A program made the translations under genes and the position numbers. Positions 3,831-60,948 of a DNA stretch of 64,000 nt are shown in pieces. Under the pieces are notes generated by a model, which was not told where the DNA came from, did not search any database, and was given only the letters and a program-made list of their open reading frames with translations. The stretch is from a virus, in the IMG/VR virus record IMGVR_UViG_3300027749_000093, positions 1 through 64,000 of that record; one strand, given 5' to 3'. Position 1 is the stretch's first letter; the number at the start of each line of letters is the position of its first letter.

Positions 3831-3833
3831 AAA

Positions 3834-4037
3834 TTACATTTTTTCTTGTGCCTTAATCTTTTTTTCTTGTTTCAACATTTCAGCAGTTGGCTCTTTACCA
3901 CTTCCTTTATTGGCACGAATATTATCCCATAATCCACGAGGAGAACTTGAACCATCTGCCCTCTTCATCATATGCTTACTCTTAGCCTTCTCAATTTTTT
4001 TATGTAAACTTTCATGCATCATCATTGCCATAAACAA
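3834..4037 (-). CDS. Small basic phage protein
   Basis: GLWDNIRA.KGSGK.PT..ML motif seen in aquatic phages. Confidence 0.7.
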   Translation of the reverse strand: MFMAMMMHESLHKKIEKAKSKHMMKRADGSSSPRGLWDNIRANKGSGKEPTAEMLKQEKKIKAQEKM

Positions 4038-4179
4038 ATTTTAATTCCTAAAGATACAACAAATCCATAAATCACAAAAAACCTTTTAATTCGCAATTCG
4101 CAAATCACAAAACCACCCTGTAAAAAATAAAAAAAACATACCAAAATAAAATCCCAATCCTATTTAACAAAAATAACAG

Positions 4180-4515
4180 CTAGGTGTCTTGGGGGTGTCA
4201 CGCAATAAACGTGGGGGGCGGCAGCCCAAAGGGGAACTAGGAATTGGGCGATAGGGCTATGCCTAGATTTCGATTTCACTTTTGGTTTTGGGGTGGGGTG
4301 GGGTGCTTAGACAGATGGGATAGGCGATAGGTTATATATATGCGATTCTAAGTAGGCTTCCTTGCCATATCTTTTTAAAGTAGGGTGATTGTATGCCTTG
4401 TGTTTTTATAGGGGTGATTTGGGGTGGTTTTATGGTTTGTCTGTTTGTACGGGGATTTGGTGTTATTAGGGTAGTTATGGGTAGGTGGGAGGTAATGTGG
4501 GTGTTTATGTAGAGT
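4180..4515. other. Non-coding G/T-rich skewed segment between divergent gene blocks
   Basis: Many G runs (ggggtggggtggggtg at 4290-4305) in an AT-rich genome; A/C-rich segment to its left. Confidence 0.8.
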
Positions 4516-38517: not shown

Positions 38518-39137
38518 TGTGGACAGATTTTTTTGACCGTATAGTAGTAATAAATCTACCCAAAAGAGTAGATAGACTAATAGAAGTATCAGAAGAACTT
38601 GACAATTACGGAATTGAATTTGACTTAGTTGATGGAATAGAACATGAAAAAGGCGCAGAAGGGTTAAGACAAACAGTAGAAAACATACTAAAAGATTCTA
38701 TACAAAAGAAGCACAAAGCAATATTGATATTTGAAGATGATTGTTTATTCGTAGAACCAAAGGATGTAGTAGATAGGACAATGGAAGATGCCATAAAAGA
38801 CTTACCTGAATATTGGCACATATTATACCTATCTGCACAAGCTACAGATGGTTTTAAAAGAAGACATTCATCCGCATTACTACAACTAGATAAGGCTTTT
38901 GCTACACATAGTTGGGCTATATCATTACAAGGTATGAAAGAAATCATTGCAGTAGGGCTAGAAGCCCCTATCGATAACTCAATAGTTGATAAGGTTCAAC
39001 CAATGCAAAGGTGCTTCATAACGTATCCAATTTTGACAACACAGAGGGCAGGGGTAAGTGACATAGGTAATACATTTATAGATTGGCATCCGTTTTTAAT
39101 TGGTAGGTATAATCAAAAATTAGCAGAATTAAAATGA
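38517..39137 (+). CDS. Glycosyltransferase family 25-like
   Basis: VINLP.R.DR, ILIFEDD, W.ILYL, THSW.IS, PID. Confidence 0.85.
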   Translation: MWTDFFDRIVVINLPKRVDRLIEVSEELDNYGIEFDLVDGIEHEKGAEGLRQTVENILKDSIQKKHKAILIFEDDCLFVEPKDVVDRTMEDAIKDLPEYWHILYLSAQATDGFKRRHSSALLQLDKAFATHSWAISLQGMKEIIAVGLEAPIDNSIVDKVQPMQRCFITYPILTTQRAGVSDIGNTFIDWHPFLIGRYNQKLAELK

Positions 39138-39832
39138 AAAAAATATCCATCGCAATTCCATCATGGAATAGGTACGAAATGACATTAGAATCCTTTGCAT
39201 CTGTAATGGATGACGAAAGAATAGAAGAAATAATTATTTCAGATGATGCAAGTGACATAGACTTGTATTATACACTAAAGGCAGCAGTAAGTTCTATGCC
39301 TAAAATAAAGATATTTAGAAACAAAGAAAACCAAGATTGCTATAAGAACAAATGTATAGCAGCAAGTTTGTGTAAGTCAGAATTTATAATTATATTTGAT
39401 AGCGATAACCAATTGAATAAAGCATATTTAGATGCGATTTATAATGAAGAATGGGATGAGAAAGTAATTTTTGCCCCTTCATTTGCTAAACCAACATTTG
39501 ATTATCGTGCATTTTCAGGTTTGACAATAACAAAAGAGAATATAAACGAATACTTTGATAAACCAATGTTTTCTACGATGCTTAACACAATGAATTTTTT
39601 TATAAATAGAAAACAATACTTAGACATTTGGGATGGCGAGGTAAACCCTGTGACAGCAGATAGTATTTATTTTAATTATTGTTGGTTAGCAACAGGAAAT
39701 AAAATAAAGGTAGTAGAAGGAATGGAATACAAACACTTAGTACATTCAGGAAGTCATTATGTAAATAATGTTTCTAGAACAGGAAACTTTTACGAAGAAG
39801 TAGAAACCAAAATAAGAAATATATGTCAATAG
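39134..39832 (+). CDS. Glycosyltransferase family 2 (GT-A)
   Basis: ISIAIP.WNR, EIIISDDAS, IFDSDN. Confidence 0.88.
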   Translation: MKKISIAIPSWNRYEMTLESFASVMDDERIEEIIISDDASDIDLYYTLKAAVSSMPKIKIFRNKENQDCYKNKCIAASLCKSEFIIIFDSDNQLNKAYLDAIYNEEWDEKVIFAPSFAKPTFDYRAFSGLTITKENINEYFDKPMFSTMLNTMNFFINRKQYLDIWDGEVNPVTADSIYFNYCWLATGNKIKVVEGMEYKHLVHSGSHYVNNVSRTGNFYEEVETKIRNICQ

Positions 39833-40575
39833 TTCAATCAAGAAGTTACGGGAGACTTGGGAACGTATTGTTTCAAATAGCTGCTGCTGCATCTTACGCA
39901 TTAAAACATAACCTAGAATTTTCTGTACCAAATGAAACTAATGATGAATATTGGAATCCATTATACTTACAACACTTACATAACGACAAATGGGTTAATG
40001 GCATAGAAGACATACTTGTAAACGAAAACGGATTTAGATTTCAAGACATTCCATTTGACGAATATTGGAGGGGAAAACAAATAGTCTTAAATGGTTATTG
40101 GCAGTCATGGAAGTACCTAGAAGAATACAGAAAGGAAATATTATACCTATTTGATTTAAGATGGAAACTAAAGCCACAGACTGCATCTATACATATTCGC
40201 AGAGGTGACTACTTACATTTAACCGATAAGCATCCACCATACACATTAGAATACCTAAACGATGCCATTAATTATTTAATAAACAATACAGGAGTAGAAA
40301 ACTTTGAAGTTTATTCAGATGATACAGCATGGTGTTTGGAAAATTTAAACCACATACCAAACATTAAAATAATTGAAACAGGAAACGAATTAGAAGATAT
40401 GGTTGAAGCATCATGTTGTGCATTTAACATTTGTTGTTCTAGTACATTCTCGTTTTGGATTGCTTGGCTTAACAGAAACCCAAATAAAATTTGTATATTC
40501 CCTAAACTATGGTTTGTGGAAGGATATCATCTAGATACAACCGATTTACTAGACCCATCATGGATAAAACTTTAA
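39823..40575 (+). CDS. Glycosyltransferase family 11 (alpha-1,2-fucosyltransferase-like)
   Basis: GRLGN.LFQ, GYWQS.KY, HIRRGDY, YSDD..WC, STFS.W.AWL. Confidence 0.92.
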   Translation: MSIVQSRSYGRLGNVLFQIAAAASYALKHNLEFSVPNETNDEYWNPLYLQHLHNDKWVNGIEDILVNENGFRFQDIPFDEYWRGKQIVLNGYWQSWKYLEEYRKEILYLFDLRWKLKPQTASIHIRRGDYLHLTDKHPPYTLEYLNDAINYLINNTGVENFEVYSDDTAWCLENLNHIPNIKIIETGNELEDMVEASCCAFNICCSSTFSFWIAWLNRNPNKICIFPKLWFVEGYHLDTTDLLDPSWIKL

Positions 40576-40577
40576 AT

Positions 40578-41177
40578 ATGTACGCATTAACAATTGAACC
40601 CGATAGTGTAATGTTTGACTTTGCATTATACTATGATATGGTAGCAGAAAGACTACCTGATAACTGTAAGATTGCAGAAGTAGGAATAGCTAATGGTAAA
40701 TCAGCCATATACCTAGCAGAAAAAATATTGTCTTTAGGTAAAAAAATAGACAGATTTGTATTAATAGATTCTATGCAATATGGTGGTAATGTACAGATAC
40801 AAACAATAGTAAATCACTTAGTAAAAAGTGGTGTAGGGGAAAGTTGTGAACTTATTATAAAAGGAAGCCTTGATGCTAGTTGCGAATTCCCTGATGATTA
40901 TTTTGATTATGTTTTTATAGATGCATCACACGAATACGAATTAACAAAAGCAGATATAAGACTTTGGCACAGAAAAGTAAAAGGAGACGGATTTCTTTCA
41001 GGACACGATTACAATGCAACAGATGTAAGAAATGCAGTAGATGAAGTACTACCTACATTTACGGTATATGTTAACCAACAAACTCCAACTAAAATATTAG
41101 AATCCATTATAACAGATAATAATTGGGGTATTTGGGAATACACAATTAATTGGCAAACTAAAAAAGTAATAAAATGA
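40578..41177 (+). CDS. Class I SAM methyltransferase (Methyltransf_24-like)
   Basis: EVG...GKS, FIDASH.YE...DI..W...VK..G...GHDY. Confidence 0.88.
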   Translation: MYALTIEPDSVMFDFALYYDMVAERLPDNCKIAEVGIANGKSAIYLAEKILSLGKKIDRFVLIDSMQYGGNVQIQTIVNHLVKSGVGESCELIIKGSLDASCEFPDDYFDYVFIDASHEYELTKADIRLWHRKVKGDGFLSGHDYNATDVRNAVDEVLPTFTVYVNQQTPTKILESIITDNNWGIWEYTINWQTKKVIK

Positions 41178-42169
41178 AAACAGCATTAGTTTTAGGTGGA
41201 CATGGAATGATAGGAATGCAACTTGTCAAAAGACTTAAAAAAGAAGGATTTTGGGTAAGGTCGGTAGATATAAAACAACCTGAATTTAGTAAGTCAGAAG
41301 CAGACCAAAGTTTAATATTAGATTTAAGAAGTGAATTTAATATGTCTAAAGTTTTATTTTCACCAAATCAATTAAATATTTCAGATAAAGAAAATTCTTT
41401 TGATGAAGTGTATATGTTGGCAGCGCAAATGGGCGGTGCTTTGTATGTATTCAGTAAAGAAAATGATGCAGATATTATACATGATTCAGCTATAATGAAT
41501 CTTCATGTAGCATCAATAGCAGCTAAATTAAGTATCAAAAAATTATTTTTTAGTAGTTCAGCTTGTTGTTATTCAGAAAGATTACAAGAAGATTTAAATA
41601 GTGCAGCATTAAAAGAAAGTAGTGCATGGGAAGGAAAACCTGATTCTGTTTATGGAATAGAAAAATTAATATCAGAACAAGTATATGATTCTTATCGCAG
41701 AAATTATGGATTAGATGTAAGAATAGGCAGATTTCATAATATATTTTCAACAGAATGTACATACAAAGGAGGAAGAGAAAAATCACCTGCAGCAGTATGT
41801 AGAAAAGTTGCCGAAGCAAAAGATGGAGATTCGATTGAAATATGGGGAGATGGATTGCAACAAAGGTCATTTCTATGGATAGAAGAATGCTTGGATGGAA
41901 TCAGAAAACTAATGGATAGCGATTATGTGCATCCTATCAATATTGGTTCTGACGAAATGATTTCAATTAATGATTTAGCAAAAATGGTTATTGAAATTAG
42001 TGGCAAAAATCTTACAATAAAAAATGTAGAATCAAATGCTATTGGTGTTAGGGGTAGAAATAGCGACAATACACTTATAAAAGAAGTATTAGATTGGACT
42101 CCAACACAACCACTTAGAAAAGGAATGGAAAGTCTTTATTCATGGATTAATAAACAAGTATCATGCTAA
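41174..42169 (+). CDS. GDP-mannose 3,5-epimerase-like extended SDR
   Basis: GG.G.IG; AA.MGG; SSACCY; YG.EKL; GGREK.PAA.CRK; WGDG.Q.RSF; GVRGRNSDN. Confidence 0.88.
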   Translation: MKTALVLGGHGMIGMQLVKRLKKEGFWVRSVDIKQPEFSKSEADQSLILDLRSEFNMSKVLFSPNQLNISDKENSFDEVYMLAAQMGGALYVFSKENDADIIHDSAIMNLHVASIAAKLSIKKLFFSSSACCYSERLQEDLNSAALKESSAWEGKPDSVYGIEKLISEQVYDSYRRNYGLDVRIGRFHNIFSTECTYKGGREKSPAAVCRKVAEAKDGDSIEIWGDGLQQRSFLWIEECLDGIRKLMDSDYVHPINIGSDEMISINDLAKMVIEISGKNLTIKNVESNAIGVRGRNSDNTLIKEVLDWTPTQPLRKGMESLYSWINKQVSC

Positions 42170-42795
42170 TACCATTACAACCAATACTAGAGAAATATAA
42201 TATTAAACTTAATGGTGTTGCACATATTGGCGCACATTGGGCGCAAGAGAATTCTACTTATATCGAATGCGGATGTAAGGAGTTTTTATATGTCGAACCT
42301 GTTAAACAAGCGTTTAATATTTTAGTAGAAAAGTTTAAGGATAACGATAATGTAATACTTAAAAACTTTGCAATAGGAAGTACTCCATCAATAGGGGTAA
42401 TGTATGTTGATACCACAAATCAAGGGCAAAGCAATAGTTTATTAGAACCATTAGTACACCTAGAACAACACAAAGAAGTAATATTTAATGGAGAACCTGA
42501 AGTAGTAAAAGTTGTGACACTAGATTCATTAAACATTTCTAAGAACTTGAACTTATTAATGATAGATACGCAAGGGTATGAATTAGAAGTTTTAAAAGGT
42601 TCTACTTCTGTATTGAATCAATTTGATTTATTATATCTAGAAGTAAATAGGGAAGAAACATATAAAGGATGCCCTATGGTAGAAGAATTAGATGAGTTTT
42701 TAAAAGAATATAAATTTACAAGGGTAGAAACAAAATGGGCTTCTGACTACCATTCTTGGGGTGATGCAGTTTGGATTAAAAATAATTTGTTATGA
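42163..42795 (+). CDS. FkbM-family methyltransferase
   Basis: HIGAH, EP, SNSLLEP, IDTQGYELEVLKG, EVN....Y.G, WGDA. Confidence 0.9.
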   Translation: MLIPLQPILEKYNIKLNGVAHIGAHWAQENSTYIECGCKEFLYVEPVKQAFNILVEKFKDNDNVILKNFAIGSTPSIGVMYVDTTNQGQSNSLLEPLVHLEQHKEVIFNGEPEVVKVVTLDSLNISKNLNLLMIDTQGYELEVLKGSTSVLNQFDLLYLEVNREETYKGCPMVEELDEFLKEYKFTRVETKWASDYHSWGDAVWIKNNLL

Positions 42796-43547
42796 TAGGT
42801 ATTTATAAAATAACTTCTCCTAATAATAAAATATATATAGGGCAAAGTATTGATATAGAAAATAGAGTTAAAAAAAATTATAGTAAAGGATTATGTAAAA
42901 ATCAAATATTTCTTTATAATTCTATAAAAAAATATGGTTGGAATAATCATAAATTTGAAATAGTAAAAGAATGCATGATTAATGAATTAAATTATTTAGA
43001 AAAATTTTATATTAAATTTTATAATAGTTTTAATACAAAAAATGGATTAAATTTAAGAAGTGGTGGCAGTTCTACTTCTAAAGTATCAGAAATAACTAAA
43101 GAAAAAATGTCTAAATCTTGGGAAAACGGGAAAAGGACAAATAAATCTAAAGAATTACATAATGCTGCAAGAAAAATAAATCAATATACAATAGATAATG
43201 TTTTTATAAGAACATGGGATTATATCTCTCAAGTAGAAAATGAATTAGGTTTTTATAGAAGCAATATATGTAAGGCTTGTAAAGGAAAATGTTATTCCGC
43301 ATATGGTTATAGATGGTCGTATATAGATGAAGAAAAAACATATAATACAATGCGTATGGGAATGAAACAAAGAATACCTGTTTATCAATATTCATTAAAT
43401 GGAGAATTTATTAAAAAATGGGATTTTGTAAATGATGCTGCGATATATGTAAATGGAAGTGTTGTTGGTATAAATAAATGTTGTCATGGTATTTATAAAA
43501 AAGCATATAAATATATATGGTCTTTTAATTTTAATCAAAAATCATAA
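42792..43547 (+). CDS. GIY-YIG homing endonuclease with NUMOD1 repeats
   Basis: GIYKITSP..KIYIGQS; two QY...G.FI..W...I...C.G....AY.Y.W units. Confidence 0.88.
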   Translation: MIGIYKITSPNNKIYIGQSIDIENRVKKNYSKGLCKNQIFLYNSIKKYGWNNHKFEIVKECMINELNYLEKFYIKFYNSFNTKNGLNLRSGGSSTSKVSEITKEKMSKSWENGKRTNKSKELHNAARKINQYTIDNVFIRTWDYISQVENELGFYRSNICKACKGKCYSAYGYRWSYIDEEKTYNTMRMGMKQRIPVYQYSLNGEFIKKWDFVNDAAIYVNGSVVGINKCCHGIYKKAYKYIWSFNFNQKS

Positions 43548-43550
43548 TTT

Positions 43551-44354
43551 ATGATTGACGTACCTGATTGGGCAAAACCTCAAATTTTTACTGTATATCC
43601 ATACGAAAATTTATTAATTTTTGAAGAGTGGGTAATAATGCAATCATTGCCTGAAACCAATCGTGAATATCTACCTGTAATGTGGACATCTTATCAAGTA
43701 AATAATAATTATGGAAATGATGTAGAAGCACTAGTAAGACTTCAGAATTTTATAAACGAACTACCAAAGGACAAAAAGTATTGGACAATTGTTCAGTATG
43801 ATGATGGTATTTTAGTAGATGTTTCAAGAATAGATTTGTTACAGTTTAGTATGAGTAAAAATATAGGTATTCCAATTCCTTTATTATCTATGCCACATTC
43901 TTATGTTCCCATTAAAGAAAAGAATTACATCGCATCATTTATAGGCACACATACGCATCCAATAAGAGAAAAAATATTTAACATAACTAGCAAGGGTTAT
44001 TACATATCTGATGCAGCACATAATACAAAAGAATTTTGTAAAATAATATCAGAGTCTGATTTTGGTTTGTGTCCTCGTGGATATGGACTTAATAGCTTTA
44101 GAATAGGGGAATGTATGCAGTATGGTACAATACCGGTTTATATATCAGATGAGTTTGTTATACCACTCGATTTAGATTTCTCAGAATACGGGATATTAAT
44201 ACCTGAATGCGATGCTGATAACATTGAAAGAATACTGAAAAGTTACACCCCGTTGCAAATAATTGATATGCAAGATAAGTGTAAGCAAGTTTATCAAGAA
44301 TATTATACATATGCAGGGGCTTTAAACAAAATTATGAAATATCTTGAAATCTAA
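43551..44354 (+). CDS. Exostosin-like glycosyltransferase (GT47)
   Basis: S.F.LCPRGYG..SFR..E....G.IPVYISD...P. Confidence 0.85.
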   Translation: MIDVPDWAKPQIFTVYPYENLLIFEEWVIMQSLPETNREYLPVMWTSYQVNNNYGNDVEALVRLQNFINELPKDKKYWTIVQYDDGILVDVSRIDLLQFSMSKNIGIPIPLLSMPHSYVPIKEKNYIASFIGTHTHPIREKIFNITSKGYYISDAAHNTKEFCKIISESDFGLCPRGYGLNSFRIGECMQYGTIPVYISDEFVIPLDLDFSEYGILIPECDADNIERILKSYTPLQIIDMQDKCKQVYQEYYTYAGALNKIMKYLEI

Positions 44355-52303: not shown

Positions 52304-55300
52304 ATGCGTAAAATACTTTTTTTTATAGTTTTTATTTTTATGTACTTTTTTGGGCAATCTCAATACGCACCAACTTCGGCTAAAACTAGATTTGTAAATG
52401 GTATTGGATTATCTACAAAAGATACCGCTAGTTTATCAAATGCAGGTGATACATTAGCAATGATTGTAGGAAAAGATAGTTTGGTTTATTTTAAATATAA
52501 AGGTTATTGGAAACCTATTGCATATAATAGTTCTTTAAATTTTTATGTTAAATATAGTGACACCGCAACAATGTTAAGCAGTTATTATAATAAAACTGCT
52601 ACCAATTCATTACTAAGTAACAAATTAAATATAAGTGATACAGCTAGTATGTTATCGGGGTATAAAACATATTACCCAAGAAATGCAATTAGCGGAGGAA
52701 CAGGAATATCATATAATCCTAGTACGGGTGTTATTACTAATACCTCTAGCGGAACGGTTACAAGTGTGGCAACAAACAATGCAAGTGGAATTACAGGAGG
52801 AACAATTACAACTAGTGGAACTATTGCAGCAGATACTTCTATTCTTGCTACTAGATTAAGAGTTCAAAAAGGAATTGATTCAGTAAGTGCAAATGTCAAT
52901 TTAAGGGTTATATATACTGACACATCTAGTATGCTATCGCCTTATTATCGAACCGCAACCGCAACTTCAGCACTAGCTTTAAAACTTAATATTAGCGATA
53001 CAGCAGCAATGTTATCACCTTATGCAAGAAGTGCAGTTGGCGGTTATGTTCCGTACACAGGTGCAACAAGTAATGTAAATTTAGGTACTAAAAATATTTA
53101 CGCAAACGCAATATACACGGGATTTAGTGCTATTACGGCATCGGGTACACAAGTTGTGTTAACGGTCAATTCAGCACCCGAAATTTTAGTAAGCGGAAGC
53201 GGTGGGCAAACTATAAAACTACCCGATGCAACTACTTTACAAAACGGAACAACTTATAGTTTTAATAACAACCAAAGTAGTGGGGCAATAACAATAAATA
53301 ATAACTCTAACACATTAGTAGTTTCTATCCCATCGGGCGGATATGCCGAGGTTATTTTATTAGATAATTCAATTGCTGCGGGTAGTTGGGATAGACACTT
53401 CCAAGCACCCGCAAACGTAAGTTGGAGTACAAATACTTTTGACTATCCGGGTTCTATAACATCGGCTACTTGGAATGGTTCTACTATTGCAATTAATAGG
53501 GGCGGAACAGGCGCAACAACGGCAAGCGCAGCATTAACTAATTTGGGTGGGTTATCGATTAGCGACACGGCTACAATGCTATCACCATACATAAGAACGG
53601 CAAACTATGGGTTAACTAAAACAGGTCAAGGATTAGGGGTTGATACTGCTTTAATCGCTACAAGATTAAGAGTGCAAAAGGGGATTGATTCGTTGGCTAG
53701 TGTTGTAACGGGTGGTTACGTTCCATACACAGGAGCAACAGGAGCAGTTAATTTAGGGGCTTATGGGTTAACATCAAGCGATATATTAGTTAGTAAAAAT
53801 CAAAATGCAGAAACAAAGAGTACAATATCTAACACAACTGCAGGTACAGGTTCAGGAAGTAAATTAAGATTAATATCTGAGTCTACAACTGCAGGGGAAG
53901 GTTCACTTGCTAAATTTTCAGGAAGTTACACACCTTATAAAACTATTGGAGCAGGTGATTTAGTTTTATATAATACTACTGCAGGTAATATTACTATTTT
54001 AAATGATAAAATTAATAAAAATATAAACTTTGCAGCAGGTGGTGTATCTACTGCTCAAGCAACATTATTTAGCACAGGAAACTTTGCCATAGGTTCTACT
54101 ACGGATGATGGGAGCAATCAGTTACAGGTAACGGGGAGTAGTAAGTTTACGGGTAATGTTACAACAGATGGAACATTTGCAAGTAATTCTGCAACACTTT
54201 TAACAAATGGAACAACAGGTGGTGTTTCTATAACATCAACTAATAATAGAGTTAGAATAAATGGAGGAGTAGATGTTAGTGTAACTAATTTATCCGCAAT
54301 TTCAGGAAGTTTAAATATTAAAAACGCACCTGCAGGTGCTGTTAGTAGCACAGGTTCATTAATAGATGTATTAGCAACTATAAATGGTGGGGCATCAGCA
54401 GGTATTGCAAATGTATTAAATTTATCTTCTCCTCAATCAACACAAGCAAGTGGAGATATGAGGATAATTAATATATCTCCAACATTTACAAAAGATGCAG
54501 GTACAGGGGTGTCATTTAGAGGTATTTATTATAATCCAAATATTTCGGGTTTAACAAGTGGATTTACTCATAATGCTTATGAAAATACATCGGGAAATGT
54601 CTTATTAGGTACAACTAGTGGAAGCACAGGAATAGGAGCAACAAGTACAATTAACGCATCTGCTATTTTACAAGTAACAAGCACAACACAAGGGATATTA
54701 CCACCTAGAATGACCACTACACAAAGAGATGCAATATCATCACCTGCAACGGGTTTACAAGTATATAATACAACAACAAACACTAATGACTTTTACAATG
54801 GTACTGCTTGGGCTAGTGGTGCATCAGGTACTTACGTTACATCCGTTACAGGAACTTCACCAATAGTTTCTAGCGGTGGAACTACTCCTGCTATTTCTAT
54901 ACCTGTGGCTACTACTTCGGTAAGTGGATATTTAAGTAGTACGGATTGGACTACTTTTAATAATAAACAAGCGGCATTAACAAACCCCGTTACAGGTACA
55001 GGTACTACTAACTACCTACCTAAATTTACAGGTGCAAGTACAATAGGGAATAGTGCAATTACTGATGATGGTACTACTGTTACTTTAAATAGTAGAGCAT
55101 TGAGTGGAACAAGTGCAAGTTTTAGTGGAGGAATAAATTTTACAGGAACTCTTGGTTCTAGTTCACCATTAACTATAATACAATCATCGTATGCGGGTGG
55201 GGGAAATTCAGCTACAAAAATTGTAGTTTATAATCCGTTTAATGGACTTGATTCTAGGCTTGGAATGAGTGTAATGAATACATCAGGTAGTTTTGTAGAA

Positions 55301-57550
55301 TTAATAAGACTTGATGGTTCTACATCAATAACTAATATTTATGGTGCATTAAGTGGAACAAGTGCTACATTCTCTAGTAGTGTACAATCTACAAATATTG
55401 GAGTAGGTTATGCTCCGCAATCAAATATTGGAGCATTTATTTATAGAAACGCATCTGATTATGCATTAGCAGTTCAACAAGATGGTTCAGGTGTACCATT
55501 TCAAGTAACAAGCGGTGCAGTAATTAGATTGTATGTCGCTAATGGAGGAAATGTAGGTATAAATACAACAAGTCCTTCTTACTTACTAGATGTTAATGGT
55601 ACAGGAAGGTTTAGTGGGATATTAACTACAAGTGGCGGTAGAGTAACTATTCAAGGCACTAATCAAAATGCAGTATGGTTTAATCAAAATGGAGGGGGTA
55701 CAAGTACAGGTTATTTAGTAGGTAGAAGTTATTCATCAGACGATGCAAATGATTTCTTTATTTATAATGTAGCAACTTCAACAAGAAATTTAGCCATATC
55801 CTCAACAGGAGCAGCTACATTTAGTAGTAGTATTAATAATTTAGGATTAAATGCTGCCCCTACTTCAACAGGTACAGGAGTTTCTTATTTACAATTTAGA
55901 AATACAGGGAATGATTTTTATATAGGAAATGAAAGTAGTACGGCAGGAGGATTCTTTACAGGCTCTAGTGCTTATGCAAGTGTTTTATATAGTAGTACGG
56001 CACAAGAATTTATAATAGGAGGAGTAAGAAGATTACAAATAGCTACTACAGGAGCAGCTACATTCTCTAGTAGTGTAACGGCAGGTAGTATTACTGCAAA
56101 TGGTACAGGATATTCAATCTTTCAAGGTAGTGCATATCTGCAAACTCCTGCATCAACAGGATTATCTTTTGGTTGGAATAGAAGTGGTGGCAATGGTGAG
56201 GCAACAATAGTTTGGGGAGCAGCCGCAGCAGGATATAATTTTGAGATTGCAAGTGTATTAAGTGGAACAATTACTCCAAGACTTACTATATTAACAACAG
56301 GTGCTGCCACATTTTCAAGTTCAGTTACCGCAACATCATTTATAAAAACAAGTGGCACATCTGCTCAAATATTAGCTGCGGATGGTTCGGTTATTACCGC
56401 AGGAGCAAACATTACAATAAGTGGAGGTACAATATCATCAAGTGGAGTTTCAATAACATTATCTGCAATTGGTTCAACTCCTAATGCTAATGCTGCGACA
56501 TTAACAGGTTCAGCATTAAATTTAGAACCTGCATCTGCATCATTTGGTGGTGTGGTTACAACAGGAACACAAACATTTGCAGGTACTAAAACATTTAGTT
56601 CAACTACTGCACAAGTAGTAACAATAAGAGGAACAAGTGGAGGTGGCACAAATAATTCACAATTAAGATTTTATGGTTCTGCTTCAGCTGCTGATTTATG
56701 GGCAATAGGAAGTGAAGTTGCAACAGGTACAAGTGGAACTGCATTTGATTTTTATAGTATAGCAGGTGCAGCAAATAGATTAAGAATAGATGGAAGTGGT
56801 AATGTAGGAATCGGAACAATTACAATCGGTTCTACATTACAAGTCAATGGTAACGCTGCAATCGGTTATTCAGCAAGTACAGCAGGACCTACTAATGGTC
56901 TAGCCGTTGCAGGTGGTGTAACAATAGGAACTACAACAGACGCAGGATACAAACTAGATGTTAATGGTACAGGAAGGTTTAGTGGTGCATTGAGTGGAAC
57001 TACTGCTACATTCTCTAGTAGTGTTAATGCAGCACAATTAAGTTTAACAGGAACTTTACCATCGGGTAATGTTGCGTTTTATTTAAGTTCAACCATAGGA
57101 ACACCATCTCCAATCGGAATGTATTTAGCCCCTAATTATACAACTGCAGGAACAAGTACAATGACTGATTTTACAATTCAAGCAAGTAGTGATAATGGGA
57201 CAAGAACAACATCAATACATAATGCATTAGTAATTAATGATATTGTTAAAGGAACAGGACATACAATTACTGATAATTATGGATTAATAATCAATAACAT
57301 AGCAGCAGGAACAAATAATACTGCACTTGCAGTAGGCATGGGGTTAAGTCAATTTCTTGATAAAATTGAATTATCAAGTACTTTAAAATTAGGAGCATAT
57401 TCAGTATCAGGATTACCTACGGCAGGTACGGCAGGTAGAATTGCTTATGTTACCGATGCACTTGCGCCTACATATAATGCAACTGTAGTTGGTGGTGGTT
57501 CTGTGAAAACTTTAGTATTTGATAACGGAACTAATTGGACAGTACATTAA
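52304..57550 (+). CDS. Long tail-fibre-like protein with N-terminal Sec signal peptide
   Basis: T/S/G-rich; YVPYTGAT..VNLG, GTVTSV, GNVGI.T, TGAATFSSSV repeats; MRK + hydrophobic core + GQS|Q. Confidence 0.8.
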   Translation: MRKILFFIVFIFMYFFGQSQYAPTSAKTRFVNGIGLSTKDTASLSNAGDTLAMIVGKDSLVYFKYKGYWKPIAYNSSLNFYVKYSDTATMLSSYYNKTATNSLLSNKLNISDTASMLSGYKTYYPRNAISGGTGISYNPSTGVITNTSSGTVTSVATNNASGITGGTITTSGTIAADTSILATRLRVQKGIDSVSANVNLRVIYTDTSSMLSPYYRTATATSALALKLNISDTAAMLSPYARSAVGGYVPYTGATSNVNLGTKNIYANAIYTGFSAITASGTQVVLTVNSAPEILVSGSGGQTIKLPDATTLQNGTTYSFNNNQSSGAITINNNSNTLVVSIPSGGYAEVILLDNSIAAGSWDRHFQAPANVSWSTNTFDYPGSITSATWNGSTIAINRGGTGATTASAALTNLGGLSISDTATMLSPYIRTANYGLTKTGQGLGVDTALIATRLRVQKGIDSLASVVTGGYVPYTGATGAVNLGAYGLTSSDILVSKNQNAETKSTISNTTAGTGSGSKLRLISESTTAGEGSLAKFSGSYTPYKTIGAGDLVLYNTTAGNITILNDKINKNINFAAGGVSTAQATLFSTGNFAIGSTTDDGSNQLQVTGSSKFTGNVTTDGTFASNSATLLTNGTTGGVSITSTNNRVRINGGVDVSVTNLSAISGSLNIKNAPAGAVSSTGSLIDVLATINGGASAGIANVLNLSSPQSTQASGDMRIINISPTFTKDAGTGVSFRGIYYNPNISGLTSGFTHNAYENTSGNVLLGTTSGSTGIGATSTINASAILQVTSTTQGILPPRMTTTQRDAISSPATGLQVYNTTTNTNDFYNGTAWASGASGTYVTSVTGTSPIVSSGGTTPAISIPVATTSVSGYLSSTDWTTFNNKQAALTNPVTGTGTTNYLPKFTGASTIGNSAITDDGTTVTLNSRALSGTSASFSGGINFTGTLGSSSPLTIIQSSYAGGGNSATKIVVYNPFNGLDSRLGMSVMNTSGSFVELIRLDGSTSITNIYGALSGTSATFSSSVQSTNIGVGYAPQSNIGAFIYRNASDYALAVQQDGSGVPFQVTSGAVIRLYVANGGNVGINTTSPSYLLDVNGTGRFSGILTTSGGRVTIQGTNQNAVWFNQNGGGTSTGYLVGRSYSSDDANDFFIYNVATSTRNLAISSTGAATFSSSINNLGLNAAPTSTGTGVSYLQFRNTGNDFYIGNESSTAGGFFTGSSAYASVLYSSTAQEFIIGGVRRLQIATTGAATFSSSVTAGSITANGTGYSIFQGSAYLQTPASTGLSFGWNRSGGNGEATIVWGAAAAGYNFEIASVLSGTITPRLTILTTGAATFSSSVTATSFIKTSGTSAQILAADGSVITAGANITISGGTISSSGVSITLSAIGSTPNANAATLTGSALNLEPASASFGGVVTTGTQTFAGTKTFSSTTAQVVTIRGTSGGGTNNSQLRFYGSASAADLWAIGSEVATGTSGTAFDFYSIAGAANRLRIDGSGNVGIGTITIGSTLQVNGNAAIGYSASTAGPTNGLAVAGGVTIGTTTDAGYKLDVNGTGRFSGALSGTTATFSSSVNAAQLSLTGTLPSGNVAFYLSSTIGTPSPIGMYLAPNYTTAGTSTMTDFTIQASSDNGTRTTSIHNALVINDIVKGTGHTITDNYGLIINNIAAGTNNTALAVGMGLSQFLDKIELSSTLKLGAYSVSGLPTAGTAGRIAYVTDALAPTYNATVVGGGSVKTLVFDNGTNWTVH

Positions 57551-57561
57551 TAAATTAATTT

Positions 57562-57873
57562 ATGTTATACTTAATATTAGCAGCAATATTTAACGCAATG
57601 ATGGATACACTTACGCATCACTTTGATACTAGCGTATTTAAGGGCTTAAACCCTAAGTGGTGGAATCCTAATGTGTCGTGGCAATACAACAATAATTTTC
57701 TAGGAATTGTACGTTTAGATGCGTGGCATTTGGCTAAGTTTGGGATGATAGGTTCAATTTGTATGGCTATGATTTCTTACCATCAAATTTTGGGAAATTT
57801 TAGTATATTTGTATTGCCGATAATTTGGTCGGTAACATTTGAAACATTTTATAAACTATTAAGAAAACCATGA
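57562..57873 (+). CDS. Small membrane protein
   Basis: Three hydrophobic stretches; WWNP..SW, DAWHLAK. Confidence 0.7.
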   Translation: MLYLILAAIFNAMMDTLTHHFDTSVFKGLNPKWWNPNVSWQYNNNFLGIVRLDAWHLAKFGMIGSICMAMISYHQILGNFSIFVLPIIWSVTFETFYKLLRKP

Positions 57874-58115
57874 AAAAAACAATCGCAACCATCGCAATCG
57901 TAAGTCTTTTAGCATTTACCGCAGACAAGTTTATTACGATTAAGTTTACTGAACCACAAATTAACTACCATTGGCAAACATTAAACAACATTAAAGCATT
58001 GGTAGACAAATCAGAGATGCCGCATACGCAAGTTCAGTACATTGTAAAGGGTATCGATTCATTACAACACGACATTCAATTGTCGGCTAAAATTGATTCA
58101 ACATCTAAAAAATAA
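57870..58115 (+). CDS. Small protein with signal peptide (fibre-associated)
   Basis: MKKTIATIAIVSLLAF; helical remainder. Confidence 0.65.
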   Translation: MKKTIATIAIVSLLAFTADKFITIKFTEPQINYHWQTLNNIKALVDKSEMPHTQVQYIVKGIDSLQHDIQLSAKIDSTSKK

Positions 58116-58118
58116 AAT

Positions 58119-58502
58119 ATGAAACATTTATTTATTGCACTTTTACTTTTGCCTTTTGCAGCATTTGCACAAATTGGAAATATTACACAAGACACAACCG
58201 TAGTTAATGGTGATACTGTTTATTATACGCATGGTGCTGCTTTAATTAACCCATGTATTGTAAATGCCAAAGGCGATACTGCTTATAGTCTTACATGGAG
58301 TGCATTTGGCTTAAATCAAGCAGGAGGTAGTTGTAATACTTATGTTGTATTACATGACAAAAAGAATGCACAAGTAGCTGACTTTAATCAACTTATTCCT
58401 GCTGATGTAGTAGCAGTATGGGGAGTAGATTCTGCACCCGTAACTGATTACATTTTGTTTATGAATAAGCGGTTTATCAAGTACACGGCTAAATCAAAAT
58501 AA
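58119..58502 (+). CDS. Small protein with signal peptide (fibre-associated/chaperone-like)
   Basis: MKHLFIALLLLPFAAFA|Q. Confidence 0.7.
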   Translation: MKHLFIALLLLPFAAFAQIGNITQDTTVVNGDTVYYTHGAALINPCIVNAKGDTAYSLTWSAFGLNQAGGSCNTYVVLHDKKNAQVADFNQLIPADVVAVWGVDSAPVTDYILFMNKRFIKYTAKSK

Positions 58503-58522
58503 AACCTTATATTTGGTACATA

Positions 58523-59443
58523 ATGAGATTAATAACTTTTATATGTGTTTTGTTTTTTGCGTTATCAATTAATGCACAAACTCAATATCCTCGTGGGTTA
58601 CCATCTCCATCATCAAATGGGTACATTAAAGAAGGTTATACTCAAATTGATAGCGGTATTATTACCAATGTCAGAGATACATTCCTTGCAAAGTACCCTA
58701 CGTTAATTAAATGGTCAGGTAATAATAAATACTACTATACCAACGGGAATGGTACTGCATGGTATCCGCTTACAACTAATGCTACTATATTTTCTGTAAA
58801 TTCAGGATGGGGATTAGTAAAAGTAAATGATTCTACTTTAAAGGCAGATACATCTATCAATGGTGTAGCTACATGGGCTTTACTGAAAAAGAAAATAGAT
58901 AGCATAGGTGCATTAAAGGTTAATTATACCGATACCGCATCTATGCTTTCTCATTATATCCGTACAGGTTCAGCCGGAACTGTTACATCTGTAGCTACAG
59001 GATTTGGTTTGTTAGGAGGAACAATAACTACTACAGGTACACTTAAAGCAGATACATCTAATGGAGGGCTTACTACATGGGCTTTGACTAAAAAGAAAGT
59101 TGATAGTCTTGGTGCAGTAAAAGTAAACATAGCAGACACCGCTTCCATGCTTACACCATATGTACGCAAATCTTCTACAAATTCTATTTTATATTCGGGT
59201 TCAGTAAACGTAGGTAATATTGTTACGGGTGGGGTTAATATAACCGTTACATTTCCATCTGCGCTAAGTACATCATCTTATTTTATCCTAGGCAGTATTG
59301 TAAGCAATGGAACTCCTGAATTAGATGCTACCGTTTTATGGGTTATTACAAACAGAAGTACAACAAGTTTTACTATACATTTTAGGGAGGATGCAGAAGT
59401 AGCACAAAACATAGCATTTGAATATATTTTATTTGCAAAATAA
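58523..59443 (+). CDS. Short fibre-like protein with signal peptide and C-terminal H-type-lectin/gp53-like domain
   Basis: MRLITFICVLFFALSINA|Q; GTVTSVATG..L.GGTITT.GT shared with long fibre; ITVTFP.A.....Y...TN..TTSFTI. Confidence 0.72.
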   Translation: MRLITFICVLFFALSINAQTQYPRGLPSPSSNGYIKEGYTQIDSGIITNVRDTFLAKYPTLIKWSGNNKYYYTNGNGTAWYPLTTNATIFSVNSGWGLVKVNDSTLKADTSINGVATWALLKKKIDSIGALKVNYTDTASMLSHYIRTGSAGTVTSVATGFGLLGGTITTTGTLKADTSNGGLTTWALTKKKVDSLGAVKVNIADTASMLTPYVRKSSTNSILYSGSVNVGNIVTGGVNITVTFPSALSTSSYFILGSIVSNGTPELDATVLWVITNRSTTSFTIHFREDAEVAQNIAFEYILFAK

Positions 59444-59449
59444 TTAAAG

Positions 59450-59701
59450 ATGGAACAAGGCTTACCGCAAAAAAGAAGATTAGGAATAACACAAGGGGAA
59501 CTTGCAGGGGTTGCAATACTTGTCGTAGGCGCAATATTGATGTTTTGGAAAACAACCGATGTGAGATTATCAGCATTAGAAATTCGTCTTAATGGACAGG
59601 ATAAAATGCAAGAACAAATTAATACAAAACTAGACAAGCTACAAGAAAGCATTAATACTGTCAACTTAACATTAAAAGATAAGGTTGATAAAAAACAATA
59701 A
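59450..59701 (+). CDS. Putative holin/antiholin (one TM plus coiled coil)
   Basis: Hydrophobic segment then heptad coil; lysis region. Confidence 0.55.
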   Translation: MEQGLPQKRRLGITQGELAGVAILVVGAILMFWKTTDVRLSALEIRLNGQDKMQEQINTKLDKLQESINTVNLTLKDKVDKKQ

Positions 59702-59718
59702 CAATTAAAACTACAATT

Positions 59719-59859
59719 ATGATTCAATTCATTACAGACAACAAAGCAGCCCTTTTAGGTGCAGCACTAGCAATCAGCGAAGTACTTGCTTCTATCCCAT
59801 CGGTTAAAGCAAATAGTTTATTTCAATTAATTTTCGGTTGGCTAAGTAAAAAACCATAG
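59719..59859 (+). CDS. Small holin-like membrane protein (46 aa, not in ORF track)
   Basis: MIQFITDNKAALLGAALAISEVLASIPSVKANSLFQLIFGWLSKKP. Confidence 0.65.
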   Translation: MIQFITDNKAALLGAALAISEVLASIPSVKANSLFQLIFGWLSKKP

Positions 59860-59860
59860 C

Positions 59861-60436
59861 ATGAAATACCTTATAGTATTTATTCTCATCTTGTCCTGTA
59901 ACCCACAAAAAAGGATAGCTAGACAAGATGAGAAAGCTATTAACTATGTATCTGCAAAAAAACCATTGCTAGATAGACTAACACCAATCGTATTAGCTAT
60001 ACATCCATGCGTTACAGAAGTAGTACGAACAGATAGCATAACTACATACGTTACAGATACTATAACACAAAGAATAAACGTACCCTACTCTGTATACAAA
60101 AACAAGGTACTTGATACAATTATAAACAACATATCTATTTTTGCTGATTCAACTACCATAATGCTTAAATACTTAGGTTCAGTAAAGATTCAAACAAATA
60201 CGGTTTTTAAGACGATTAAAGACGAGTCAGAGTTAAATCGATACAAAGACACACTAATTGTATTTAAGGTCAAGGAAGGGCAGTATATAGGGCAAATAAA
60301 GCAATTGCAGGATGATGTAATGGTTGCGGATAAGGGAAAAGACACATGGTTAAGAAACTTTTGGGTATTACTTGTATCTATGATATCAATTCAAATGCTT
60401 TTGTTGTACTTTAAATTAAAGAAAGGAAAACTATAA
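59861..60436 (+). CDS. Putative unimolecular spanin
   Basis: Lipoprotein signal ending ILSC, beta-rich middle, C-terminal TM helix and basic tail. Confidence 0.7.
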   Translation: MKYLIVFILILSCNPQKRIARQDEKAINYVSAKKPLLDRLTPIVLAIHPCVTEVVRTDSITTYVTDTITQRINVPYSVYKNKVLDTIINNISIFADSTTIMLKYLGSVKIQTNTVFKTIKDESELNRYKDTLIVFKVKEGQYIGQIKQLQDDVMVADKGKDTWLRNFWVLLVSMISIQMLLLYFKLKKGKL

Positions 60437-60948
60437 TGACAAAAAATTATTACACAGAATTCCTTGAGATAGAATACAAAAAAACATCTATCGATATGCC
60501 TACAGTAGTAGTATATGCTAAGACATTAGTGGGTAAGTACGATAAGGAGGTTGTAAGGGCTGCGTATTGTTGTTTCAGAAATGAAAGCGGTAATGGTAAG
60601 AATGGAGTCAACGGAAATTTTTCAGGAATTCAAGCAGACCAAGCTAAGTGGGAAGGATTAGATTTAACCAACGTAATAGGCACATCAGTTAAGAAAGATA
60701 ATTTTGGAGATGTAAGGAGATTCCTTTGCTTTAATGAGAAGGGATACCAAGCCTGTTTTGAATTTCTTTGTTATAAGTTCAAACAACGTGGTGTTTATAT
60801 TGGCGCAGAAAATATTGAAGATTCTAATAAATTAGCACTAGCCTATCTTACTAAATGGGTGGGCTTGTCGGCTAAAGATGCAGCAACGAAAACTGAAGAC
60901 ATAACCAACTTTAAGAGTTTATACAAAAGCAGTATAACCGCAATATAA
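60436..60948 (+). CDS. Putative endolysin (lysozyme-like/GH73-related)
   Basis: NESGNG...NFSGIQ...F..F pattern; end of lysis cassette. Confidence 0.55.
   Translation: MTKNYYTEFLEIEYKKTSIDMPTVVVYAKTLVGKYDKEVVRAAYCCFRNESGNGKNGVNGNFSGIQADQAKWEGLDLTNVIGTSVKKDNFGDVRRFLCFNEKGYQACFEFLCYKFKQRGVYIGAENIEDSNKLALAYLTKWVGLSAKDAATKTEDITNFKSLYKSSITAI

What the first reader, a model, noticed from the sequence alone, without database searches (positions are those of the whole stretch)
52304..60436. Exported proteins are packed with the Bacteroidota O-glycosylation sequon D-(S/T)-x, and the distal fibre lacks it
Seen (hand count): in the first ~465 aa of the long fibre 12 of 16 Asp are followed by S/T (DTA x6, DTL, DSL x2, DSV, DTS x2), including the first nine in a row. 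In the remaining ~1280 aa only one of more than 30 Asp is (DSR), despite very high S/T content. The 306-aa fibre has 9 of 11, the 127-aa protein 4 of 8, the 81-aa protein 2 of 5, and the spanin has five canonical sites. A shared repeat (N/Y)x(S/T/A)DT(A/S)xMLS.Y occurs in both fibres. Known: the general O-glycosylation system of Bacteroidota modifies extracytoplasmic proteins at D-(S/T)-(A/I/L/M/T/V). Inference: the phage routes fibres through the periplasm so the host glycosylates the proximal shaft while the distal receptor-binding part stays bare.
Basis: partly seen in the sequence, partly recalled or inferred. Interest (0 to 1): 0.88.

Follow-up and report, generated by a model that had tools for sequence, protein, structure and literature searches.

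The report
Exported, sequon-rich phage tail fibres
A phage of a Flavobacterium-like host gives its fibre-like proteins and several small late proteins secretion signals and packs their exported parts with the host's sugar-attachment motif, which suggests that the host decorates them with sugars outside the cytoplasm.

Summary
The hand count is correct and far beyond chance. In six leader-bearing proteins, 35 of 54 Asp are followed by Ser/Thr, and 28 of these fit the canonical D-[ST]-[AILMTV]. In 83 leaderless ORFs of the same 72-kb genome the figures are 121 and 54 of 1107. The distal 1283 aa of the long fibre has 1 of 37.

The signal is not only the DT(A/S)xMLSxY repeat. Four small exported proteins without that repeat have 13 canonical sites in 27 Asp. 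Two other phage lineages repeat the pattern. In the 127-aa family the leader, the Gln after it and a D-T-T are invariant in 19 of 19 sequences.

The leaders end in Gln (the Bacteroidetes Q-rule), and all 87 phage records hit by the portal infect Flavobacteriia. Of 76 homologues read, 58 carry such a leader. Four of the six leaderless ones lack the repeat.

The 306-aa protein models as a homotrimer with a pyocin-fibre-like tip.

Export and selection for sequons are well supported. The glycan itself and virion membership are inferred, not shown. I found no published report of this. Python was lost, so later counts are by hand.

The parts
52304..52360 (+). Leader of the long fibre, aa 1-19: basic start, hydrophobic core, small residues, then Gln20
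   Evidence: The translation is and the N-terminal hydrophobicity is 3.03. Homologues with unrelated leader sequences place Gln at the same register before Q-Y-(A/S)-P-T.
52361..53698 (+). Proximal part of the long fibre (aa 20-465). It holds an N-terminal module, five DT(A/S)xMLSxY repeats and a conserved central domain (aa 244-430). 12 of 16 Asp are followed by S/T.
   Evidence: Counts are. The search found 1933 representative proteins at E<=1e-3. The central domain is invariant at many columns in the alignment.
53699..57550 (+). Distal 1283 aa of the long fibre: rich in Gly, Ser and Thr, with only 1 of 37 Asp followed by S/T
   Evidence: Counts are. An internal motif near aa 800-840 is the C-terminal end in homologues P0046, P0051, P0059 and P0062.
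57562..57873 (+). 103-aa membrane protein with three hydrophobic segments; the first loop carries DTL and DTS
   Evidence: Translation, counts. There was no family hit. A role in lysis is inferred from its position only.
57870..58115 (+). 81-aa protein with a leader; 2 of 5 Asp are canonical sites
   Evidence: It has a weak match to phrog_30835 (E 0.0013). Positional counterparts are present in L011 and L008.
58119..58502 (+). 127-aa protein with a leader (cut predicted A17|Q18); 4 of 8 Asp are canonical sites; it contains no Glu
   Evidence: In the family alignment of 19 sequences, Q18 and D25-T26-T27 are invariant.
58523..59443 (+). 306-aa fibre: leader aa 1-18, Gln19, a sequon-rich shaft (9 of 11 Asp) and a tip domain at aa ~220-306 without sequons
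   Evidence: The tip fold matches the R1 pyocin fibre structures 6cl5 and 6cxb (E 2e-5 and 5e-5). The homotrimer scores 0.77 against a best control of 0.00.
59450..59701 (+). 83-aa protein with one membrane segment followed by a coiled coil; 0 of 5 Asp are in a sequon
   Evidence: It has only a weak FlaC_arch match. Whether it is a holin or an inner spanin part was not tested.
59861..60436 (+). 191-aa lipoprotein (lipobox Cys13) with a C-terminal membrane segment, so it looks like a one-piece spanin; 6 of 12 Asp are followed by S/T and 5 are canonical
   Evidence: Counterparts with the same build and with sequons are present in L011 (5 of 11) and L008 (6 of 11). A lipoprotein-like protein in the lysis region of the cultured Elemovirus has 4 of 10, but I did not check it for a C-terminal membrane segment.
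38517..44354 (+). Phage-encoded sugar cluster without leaders: GT25, GT2, GT11, two methyltransferases, an epimerase/dehydratase and a GT47-like protein, with a GIY-YIG endonuclease inserted
   Evidence: Pfam hits. Any link to the sequons is an untested idea.

Best explanation
The window belongs to a 72-kb podovirus of a Flavobacteriia (Bacteroidota) host. The end of its late operon encodes two trimeric proteins built like tail fibres (1748 and 306 aa). Around them are small proteins and a spanin-like lipoprotein. All of these start with Sec-type leaders.

Proposed sequence of events:
1. Signal peptidase I removes the leaders, in most cases exposing Gln.
2. The exported parts have been selected to carry many copies of D-(S/T)-(A/I/L/V/M/T/S), the host's general O-glycosylation motif.
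3. The host's periplasmic machinery therefore attaches its O-glycan to the fibre shafts and to the small proteins.
4. The receptor-binding tips carry no motif and stay bare.

The DT(A/S)xMLSxY repeat probably does two jobs: it is a building block of the trimeric shaft and it presents a sequon.

Status of each step: export is inferred from sequence, glycosylation is inferred from the host's published rules, and nothing has been measured. I consider it more likely than not that these are the virion's fibres. In that case they would join capsids only after the holin opens the inner membrane and before the outer membrane breaks. That last step is pure inference.
For: - Counts: 35 of 54 Asp in the leader set are followed by S/T, against 121 of 1107 in leaderless ORFs. 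Canonical sites are 28 of 54 against 54 of 1107 (hand sums).
- Independence from the repeat: the four small exported proteins have 13 canonical sites in 27 Asp.
- Specificity for Asp: Glu followed by S/T is 1 of 14 (hand count).
- Replication in L011: 10 of 25 D[ST], 9 canonical.
- Replication in L008: 13 of 27 D[ST], 9 canonical, while the neighbouring leaderless endolysin has 0 of 7.
- 127-aa family: 19 of 19 have a leader. Gln18 and D25-T26-T27 are invariant down to 21% identity.
- Host: 87 of 87 phage records hit by the portal infect Flavobacterium, Cellulophaga, Tenacibaculum or Maribacter, or are unnamed.
- Leaders in the family: of 76 homologues read by eye, 58 have a leader followed by Gln, 2 have an internal anchor, 10 are fragments and 6 are leaderless.
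- Fibre nature, predicted structure: the homotrimer scores 0.77 (best control 0.00, partner pLDDT at least 75, runs agree in at least 66% of contacts). In the tool's calibration, 20 of 30 solved pairs and 1 of 23 single chains reached the mark. The tip resembles the R1 pyocin fibre (E 2e-5, 83 columns).
- Fibre nature, homology: the central domain is 59-70% identical to relatives in three contigs. Two of them were read. One is a leaderless fibre that sits directly after genes that look like baseplate genes (L014). The other is leaderless with a classic fibre start (L015).
- Fibre nature, family domain: the leader-bearing homologue P0038 carries PF13884, the endosialidase chaperone.
- Gene order: the order from structural genes to fibre, then small exported proteins, then lipoprotein, recurs in L011 and L008.
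- Published rules (review PMC12871550, passages read): the motif, near-full occupancy, the sufficiency of an engineered motif and cross-species glycosylation.
Against: - No glycan, no virion proteomics and no signal-peptide predictor were available. I judged the leaders by eye and by a hydrophobicity scan.
- Capsids assemble in the cytoplasm. I know of no tailed phage that takes its fibres from the periplasm.
- This phage also has leaderless tail candidates: the 1141-aa protein matches phrog_14478, and the 157-aa protein matches the short-tail-fibre and adhesin PHROGs.
- The trimer model lists repeat residues among inter-chain contacts, including D137/T138, T178 and T206 of the 306-aa fibre. 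The D-T could therefore be kept for packing, and a glycan there might not fit.
- P0030, and perhaps P0032, carry the repeat without a leader.
- The leaderless fibre in L015 keeps one D-S-T in the shared G-T-I-A-x-D module.
- The 83-aa protein has 0 of 5.
- The distal depletion is not significant against the genome-wide rate (about 0.08).
- The monomer model of the shaft was poor (pLDDT 47).
Confidence: 0.5

Rival explanations
1. The proteins are exported and glycosylated but are not virion parts. They act in the envelope of the infected cell, for example by masking receptors on the cell or its debris, by blocking superinfection, or by taking part in lysis.
For: - The 306-aa gene lies among membrane and lysis-type genes.
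- No T9SS C-terminal domain was found, so the proteins would stay in the periplasm (no Pfam hit at E<=0.1).
- The phage has other, leaderless tail candidates.
- Exported phage proteins obeying the Q-rule are already described for P. gingivalis phages as possible envelope modifiers (PMC10367356, passages).
Against: - The proteins have fibre architecture with receptor-binding-type tips.
- Domains are shared with leaderless tail fibres, one of which sits after genes that look like baseplate genes.
- An endosialidase-chaperone end is present in homologues (P0038).
- The distal ends are very diverse across the 1933 representatives. That is the pattern expected of host-range determinants.
- No leaderless copy of the same tips is present in the genome.
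Confidence: 0.22
2. The D-T/S pattern is purely structural. The repeat and the shared modules need Asp-Thr for folding of the trimer, and the match to the host sequon is a coincidence with no glycan involved.
For: - Repeat residues lie in the modelled trimer interface.
- The repeat occurs in leaderless P0030.
- One D-S-T is kept in the leaderless fibre in L015, and a D-T-G in P0062.
Against: - The small exported proteins without the repeat are as enriched as the fibres: 13 canonical of 27 here, and 9 of 25 and 9 of 27 in two other lineages.
- D-T-T next to the mature N-terminus is invariant in the 127-aa family.
- The third position of the repeat is always one of the residues the review lists as accepted (A, S, T, L).
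- Of the complete proteins read, the repeat occurs in only 2 without a leader or anchor (P0030, P0032), while 60 complete proteins carry one, most of them with the repeat.
- The review states that an exported motif is normally glycosylated.
Confidence: 0.15
3. The N-terminal hydrophobic stretch is not an export signal. It would be a membrane tether or an assembly handle, so the bulk of the fibre stays in the cytoplasm and is never glycosylated.
For: This would solve the assembly problem. One gene caller started the long fibre at the internal Met13 (P0042).
Against: - The leaders have a basic start, a core of 10-14 hydrophobic residues and small residues before a conserved Gln, across unrelated leader sequences.
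- Most homologues have no internal Met in the leader.
- This reading does not explain why only these proteins are sequon-rich.
Confidence: 0.05

Closest known systems
Substrates of the general O-glycosylation system of Bacteroidota (review PMC12871550, passages read)
   Same: They have a Sec leader and an extracytoplasmic location, and they carry D-(S/T) followed by L/I/V/T/A/S/M. The motif is enriched above chance in non-cytoplasmic proteins.
   Different: These are phage-encoded, and the site density is far higher: up to 9 sites in 306 aa, and dozens in homologues. The review has no occurrence of the word 'phage'. No glycan has been shown.
Signal-peptide proteins of Porphyromonas gingivalis phages that obey the Q-rule (PMC10367356, passages read)
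   Same: They are phage genes whose leaders end before a Gln, which was read as adaptation to the host's Sec and signal peptidase I pathway.
   Different: Those are five genes of unknown function. That paper has no occurrence of 'glycosylat' or 'tail fiber'. Here the exported proteins include fibre-like trimers.
Virion glycosylation in mycobacteriophages (recalled; the title is cited by papers listed, the paper itself was not read)
   Same: Tailed-phage structural proteins that carry sugars, in a phage genome that encodes glycosyltransferases.
   Different: As recalled, the phage's own enzymes act there on capsid and tail-tube proteins in the cytoplasm. Here the proposed route is export followed by the host's periplasmic system at a defined sequon.
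R-type pyocin and phage tail fibres and tailspikes (PDB 6cl5, 6cxb, 4ru5, 7eea)
   Same: The tip of the 306-aa protein has the same small beta-sandwich fold (E 2e-5, rmsd 2.8 over 83 columns). A trimer is predicted.
   Different: The known fibres have no leader and assemble in the cytoplasm.
Minor coat protein pIII of filamentous phages (recalled, no call)
   Same: A receptor-binding virion protein made with a Sec leader and assembled from the envelope side.
   Different: Filamentous phages assemble while extruding through the membrane. This is a tailed phage with a capsid filled in the cytoplasm.

Membership tests
Bacteroidota general O-glycosylation substrate | The protein is exported out of the cytoplasm (leader or membrane topology) | tested here: met
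   N-terminal hydrophobicity is 2.65-3.03 for the two fibres and the 81-, 127- and 191-aa proteins in the window. The 83-aa protein scores 2.91, but for a membrane segment starting near residue 20 rather than a leader. Other ORFs are mostly below 2.3. Leader build was read by eye. No SignalP-type tool was available.
Bacteroidota general O-glycosylation substrate | Asp, then Ser/Thr, then a hydrophobic or small residue | tested here: met
   28 canonical sites in 54 Asp of the exported set.
Bacteroidota general O-glycosylation substrate | The host belongs to Bacteroidota | tested here: met
   All 87 phage records hit by the portal are Flavobacteriia phages or unnamed. Leaders follow the Q-rule. 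This evidence is indirect, because the record is an uncultured viral contig.
Bacteroidota general O-glycosylation substrate | A glycan is attached to the Ser/Thr | not testable with these tools
   This needs glycoproteomics or a gel shift.
Signal peptidase I substrate obeying the Bacteroidetes Q-rule | Gln immediately after the predicted cleavage site | tested here: met
   This holds for the long fibre, the 306-aa fibre and the 127-aa protein, for 58 of 76 homologues read, and for 19 of 19 in the 127-aa family. It does not hold for the 81-aa and 61-aa proteins.
Phage tail fibre | Trimeric fibrous build | tested here: met
   The homotrimer of aa 20-306 scores 0.77 against a best control of 0.00, with contacts from aa ~87 to 306. 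This is the model's own confidence only. The tool notes its calibration held two copies.
Phage tail fibre | Distal receptor-binding domain of a known fibre fold | tested here: met
   Foldseek gives 6cl5_A at E 2.1e-5 and 6cxb at 4.6e-5, with tailspike tips at lower ranks. Pfam Gp53-like_C matches only at E 0.057.
Phage tail fibre | Present in the virion | not testable with these tools
   The genome is uncultured. Cultured relatives (phi38:1, Elemovirus) have no homologue of these fibres.
Phage tail fibre | Made and assembled in the cytoplasm (no leader) | tested here: not met
   Leaders are present here and in 58 of 76 homologues read.
Type IX secretion cargo | Conserved C-terminal sorting domain | tested here: not met
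   No Pfam family was found at E<=0.1 at the C-termini of either fibre.
One-piece (unimolecular) spanin | N-terminal lipobox plus C-terminal membrane segment, encoded in the lysis region | tested here: inconclusive
   Both features are visible in the 191-aa translation and in the counterparts in L011 and L008. There is no family hit. The neighbouring 170-aa ORF has no recognisable lysin domain.

The most novel reading that the evidence does not exclude
A large, uncultured group of Bacteroidota phages (1933 representative proteins) matures its tail fibres in the periplasm. The fibres are Sec-exported, capped with pyroglutamate and coated along the shaft with the host's O-glycan at a repeat that evolved as a sequon carrier. 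They are added to capsids only when the holin opens the inner membrane. The phage's own leaderless glycosyltransferase and methyltransferase cluster (38517-44354) would edit the lipid-linked glycan, so that the fibres receive a phage-specified sugar coat.
Probability: 0.25. Interest if true: 0.92.

Novelty: new variant of a known kind. Interest (0 to 1): 0.78.

Why it matters
If this is true, tailed phages of a major bacterial phylum use the host's export and protein-glycosylation pathways to finish their attachment organs. That would break the textbook rule that tailed virions are built entirely in the cytoplasm.

It would also add a sugar coat as a factor in phage stability, in recognition by host defences or grazers, and in sticking to mucus or particles. 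It would give glycobiologists natural proteins with dozens of sequons to study the still unidentified transferase.

It is testable. Any of these proteins can be expressed in Flavobacterium johnsoniae, whose glycosylated sites have been mapped according to the review. The result could then be compared with a glycosylation mutant.

Even the modest reading is, as far as my five searches show, unreported: exported phage proteins copy the host's sequon usage.

Tried and rejected
Searches that found nothing:
- Pfam and PHROGs gave no significant family for either fibre or for the small proteins.
- Megablast of the region and tblastn of the 306-aa fibre against 50,697 phage records found nothing.
- tblastn of the first 465 aa found one record, an uncultured phage, matching the central domain only.
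- The repeat could therefore not be looked for in cultured phages of other phyla. The test 'same repeat in non-Bacteroidota phages' remains open.
- The first scan of genome contigs with single-protein patterns found no relative.
- The second scan, with an alignment, found three contigs from metagenome bins. Two were read and look like phage DNA; the third (L016, 4 kb) was not read. Their bin labels (Bacteroides, Woesearchaeota, Rhodospirillales) are not reliable host calls.

Cultured relatives:
- phi38:1 was read and an Elemovirus was read.
- Their fibre candidates have no leader and are unrelated, so they give no virion evidence for this family.

Structure and atlas:
- The monomer model of the 306-aa fibre was poor in the shaft. 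I could not judge whether the acceptor threonines are exposed, because no coordinates could be analysed after the script machine was lost.
- The protein atlas gave only scores below 0.9. All hits were viral, so they are leads only.

Ideas rejected:
- A cytoplasmic isoform from the internal Met13 of the long fibre: most homologues have no Met there.
- Export for the sake of disulfide bonds: I saw no Cys outside the leaders in either fibre (read by eye).

Literature: five searches for phage together with Bacteroidota O-glycosylation found no report. Supplements were not opened. The supplementary tables of PMC10367356 and the glycoproteome papers cited in the review might list phage or prophage proteins that I could not see.
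Full report
WHAT THE WINDOW IS

The window is the first 64 kb of a single 72,427-base viral contig. IMG/VR classes the contig as having inverted terminal repeats, and CheckV rates it 66% complete. G+C is about 31%.

The late operon on the + strand contains, in order:
- a P22-type portal (phrog_6547, E 1e-55);
- a scaffold-sized ORF, a 450-aa capsid-sized ORF and three smaller ORFs;
- the genes of the finding.

tblastn of the portal hits 87 phage records at 23-26% identity. All infect Flavobacterium (68), Cellulophaga (15), Tenacibaculum (2) or Maribacter (1), or are unnamed (1). The host is therefore very probably a member of the Flavobacteriia. This matters because the O-glycosylation system in question is specific to Bacteroidota.

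THE OBSERVATION

- Long fibre, aa 1-465: 12 of 16 Asp are followed by Ser/Thr, including the first nine in a row. Ten sites are canonical D-[ST]-[AILMTV].
- Long fibre, remaining 1283 aa: 1 of 37.
- 306-aa fibre: 9 of 11.
- 127-aa protein: 4 of 8.
- 81-aa protein: 2 of 5.
- 191-aa lipoprotein: 6 of 12, with five canonical.

A crude ORF call of the whole genome shows two things. First, the proteins with the strongly hydrophobic N-termini are these proteins, plus the 83-aa membrane protein and a 61-aa protein at 65777-65962 outside the window (2 of 2 canonical). Second, the other 83 ORFs sit at background. My hand sums from that table give 1107 Asp, 121 followed by S/T (10.9%) and 54 canonical (4.9%). 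The exported set gives 35 of 54 and 28 of 54.

By a hand binomial, the four small proteins alone (13 canonical of 27) have a probability of about 1e-10. The depletion in the distal fibre is about 7e-5 against its own S+T content. Against the genome-wide rate it is only about 0.08, so I call it real but modest.

Glu, which the published motif does not tolerate, is followed by S/T in 1 of 14 cases in the same proteins. The 83-aa membrane protein is a miss: 0 of 5.

IS IT ONLY A STRUCTURAL REPEAT?

Four lines of evidence bear on it.

1. The small proteins have no DT(A/S)xMLSxY repeat, yet they are as enriched as the fibres.

2. The pattern recurs in other phages.
- L011 is a 55-kb viral contig with the same gene order. 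It has two leader-bearing fibres followed by 124-, 83- and 88-aa leader proteins and a 190-aa lipoprotein. Those four hold 10 D[ST] (9 canonical) in 25 Asp.
- L008 is a different phage type. It has a 1416-aa leader-bearing fibre followed by 123- and 85-aa leader proteins and a 170-aa lipoprotein, with 13 D[ST] (9 canonical) in 27 Asp. The next gene, a leaderless lysin-like protein, has 0 of 7.
- In a cultured Flavobacterium phage, a lipoprotein-like protein in the lysis region has 4 of 10.

3. In the 127-aa family, 28 proteins were found and I aligned 16 of them with the query and the two distant locus proteins. All 19 aligned sequences have a leader. Among the few invariant columns are Gln18, right after the leader, and D25-T26-T27. 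These stay invariant down to 21% identity.

4. The repeat goes with export. I read 76 homologues of the two fibres by eye (41 of 41; 35 of the 150 listed).
- 58 have a leader ending before Gln.
- 2 have an internal hydrophobic anchor.
- 10 are fragments.
- 6 are leaderless. Four of these (P0010, P0011, P0014, P0062) lack the repeat. P0030 has it. P0032 has it, but its start is doubtful.

Leaderless fibres that share the conserved central domain at 67-70% identity lack the repeat. The fibre in L014 follows genes that look like baseplate genes, and its first ~232 aa have 1 D[ST] in 21 Asp, none canonical. The fibre in L015 keeps a single D-S-T in a shared module.

EVIDENCE THAT THE REPEAT IS ALSO STRUCTURAL

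The homotrimer model of the 306-aa fibre passes the tool's test:
- score 0.77 against a best control of 0.00;
- partner pLDDT at least 75;
- runs agree in at least 66% of contacts;
- in the calibration, 20 of 30 solved pairs and 1 of 23 single chains reached the mark; the tool notes that three copies and my own alignment differ from its calibration.

The interface runs from about residue 87 to 306. It lists D137/T138, T178 and T206 among the contacts. In a thin fibre nearly every residue touches another chain, and I could not compute exposure, so this neither proves nor excludes room for a glycan. I conclude that the repeat is a shaft element that also presents a sequon.

ARE THESE EXPORT SIGNALS?

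Each leader has a basic start, 10-14 hydrophobic residues and small residues at -3 and -1. In the long fibre, the 306-aa fibre and the 127-aa protein a Gln follows. The same is true of unrelated leader sequences across the family.

Exposing Gln after signal peptidase I cleavage is a feature specific to Bacteroidetes (abstracts of PMC5837995 and PMC10653852). Phage genes that obey the rule have been noted in P. gingivalis phages (PMC10367356, passages).

No T9SS sorting domain was found, so the predicted destination is the periplasm. No dedicated signal-peptide predictor was available.

WOULD THEY BE GLYCOSYLATED?

Passages of the review PMC12871550 state the following:
- Glycosylation occurs on Ser/Thr preceded by Asp and followed most often by L, I, V, T, A, S or M.
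- About half of non-cytoplasmic proteins carry the motif.
- The site is generally nearly fully substituted.
- Introducing an engineered motif leads to glycosylation.
- Proteins are cross-glycosylated between species.

Given export in a Bacteroidota host, glycosylation of many of these sites follows from established knowledge. It has not been measured.

ARE THEY FIBRES, AND VIRION FIBRES?

Evidence that they are fibres:
- The tip of the 306-aa protein (aa ~220-306, pLDDT about 70-80) matches the foot of the R1 pyocin fibre (E 2e-5) and tailspike tips.
- A trimer is predicted.
- The central domain of the long fibre is shared with leaderless fibres, one of them in a tail-gene context.
- Homologue P0038 combines a leader, the repeat and the endosialidase-chaperone domain PF13884. 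I also read a similar ending in L011's 1509-aa fibre.
- The genes occupy the usual tail-fibre slot before the lysis genes in three lineages.

Evidence against virion membership:
- There is a topological problem, because capsids assemble in the cytoplasm.
- This phage has leaderless tail candidates.

My proposal is inference only: the fibres wait in the periplasm and bind particles once the holin opens the inner membrane. I put about 0.5 on 'exported, glycosylated and virion fibres' and about 0.22 on 'exported and glycosylated but acting in the cell envelope'.

COMPARISON WITH WHAT IS KNOWN, AND NOVELTY

Host glycoproteins of Bacteroidota, Q-rule phage proteins, glycosylated mycobacteriophage virions (recalled) and pyocin-type fibres each share one aspect with this case. 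None combines a Sec leader, a dense sequon array and a fibre build.

Five literature searches and the review (no occurrence of 'phage') gave no report of phage proteins as substrates of this system. I rate it a new variant of known kinds. The family is large: 1933 representative proteins at E<=1e-3, 487 at E<=1e-30. It is almost absent from cultured phages.

LIMITS

- The script machine was lost. All later counts and probabilities are by hand from printed translations.
- Leaders were judged by eye.
- The homologues read are the top-ranked or repeat-rich ones, not a random sample.
- Host assignment is indirect.

Noticed in passing
window 1-4495 and genome 67933-72427: The contig ends in a perfect 4,495-base inverted terminal repeat (100% identity). 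The outermost 160 bases are themselves palindromic (94%). It could be a real genome end structure or an assembly artefact. CheckV completeness is 66%.
   Followed up: partly
window 38517-44354: There is a leaderless sugar cluster between the giant ORF and the portal: GT25, GT2, GT11 (fucosyltransferase family), two methyltransferases (one FkbM type), an NAD-dependent epimerase/dehydratase and a GT47-like protein. It is interrupted by a GIY-YIG/NUMOD1 homing endonuclease at 42792-43547. It might edit a host glycan.
   Followed up: partly
window 26681-35902: A 3073-aa ORF lies in the position where phi38:1 has its 1691-aa structural protein gp101. I ran no family search on it.
   Followed up: no
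genome 65777-65962 (-), outside the window: A 61-aa ORF has a leader, and both of its Asp are in canonical sequons (DSV, DTT).
   Followed up: no
window ~54700-54830 (aa ~800-840 of the long fibre): An internal motif (L-P-P-R-M-T-T-T-Q ... Y-N-T-T) is the C-terminal end in several homologues: P0046, P0051, P0059, P0062 and P0039. This suggests the 1748-aa protein is two fibre units fused head to tail.
   Followed up: no
window 58119-58502: The 127-aa exported protein contains no Glu at all. It has two Cys that could form a periplasmic disulfide.
   Followed up: no
L015 and L016: Contigs binned as a Woesearchaeota archaeon and a Rhodospirillales bacterium carry the phage fibre's central domain at 59-67% identity. 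L015 reads like a phage genome. L016 was not read. Such bin labels may be phage DNA swept into the bins.
   Followed up: partly
L017 9811-10365 (Flavobacterium phage vB_FspP_elemoC_14-1A): In this cultured phage the fibre candidates have no leader. The 184-aa lipoprotein-like ORF next to the lysis genes has 4 of 10 Asp followed by S/T.
   Followed up: partly
window 60436-60948: The 170-aa ORF in the endolysin position has no Pfam or PHROG hit, so this phage's lysin remains unidentified.
   Followed up: no
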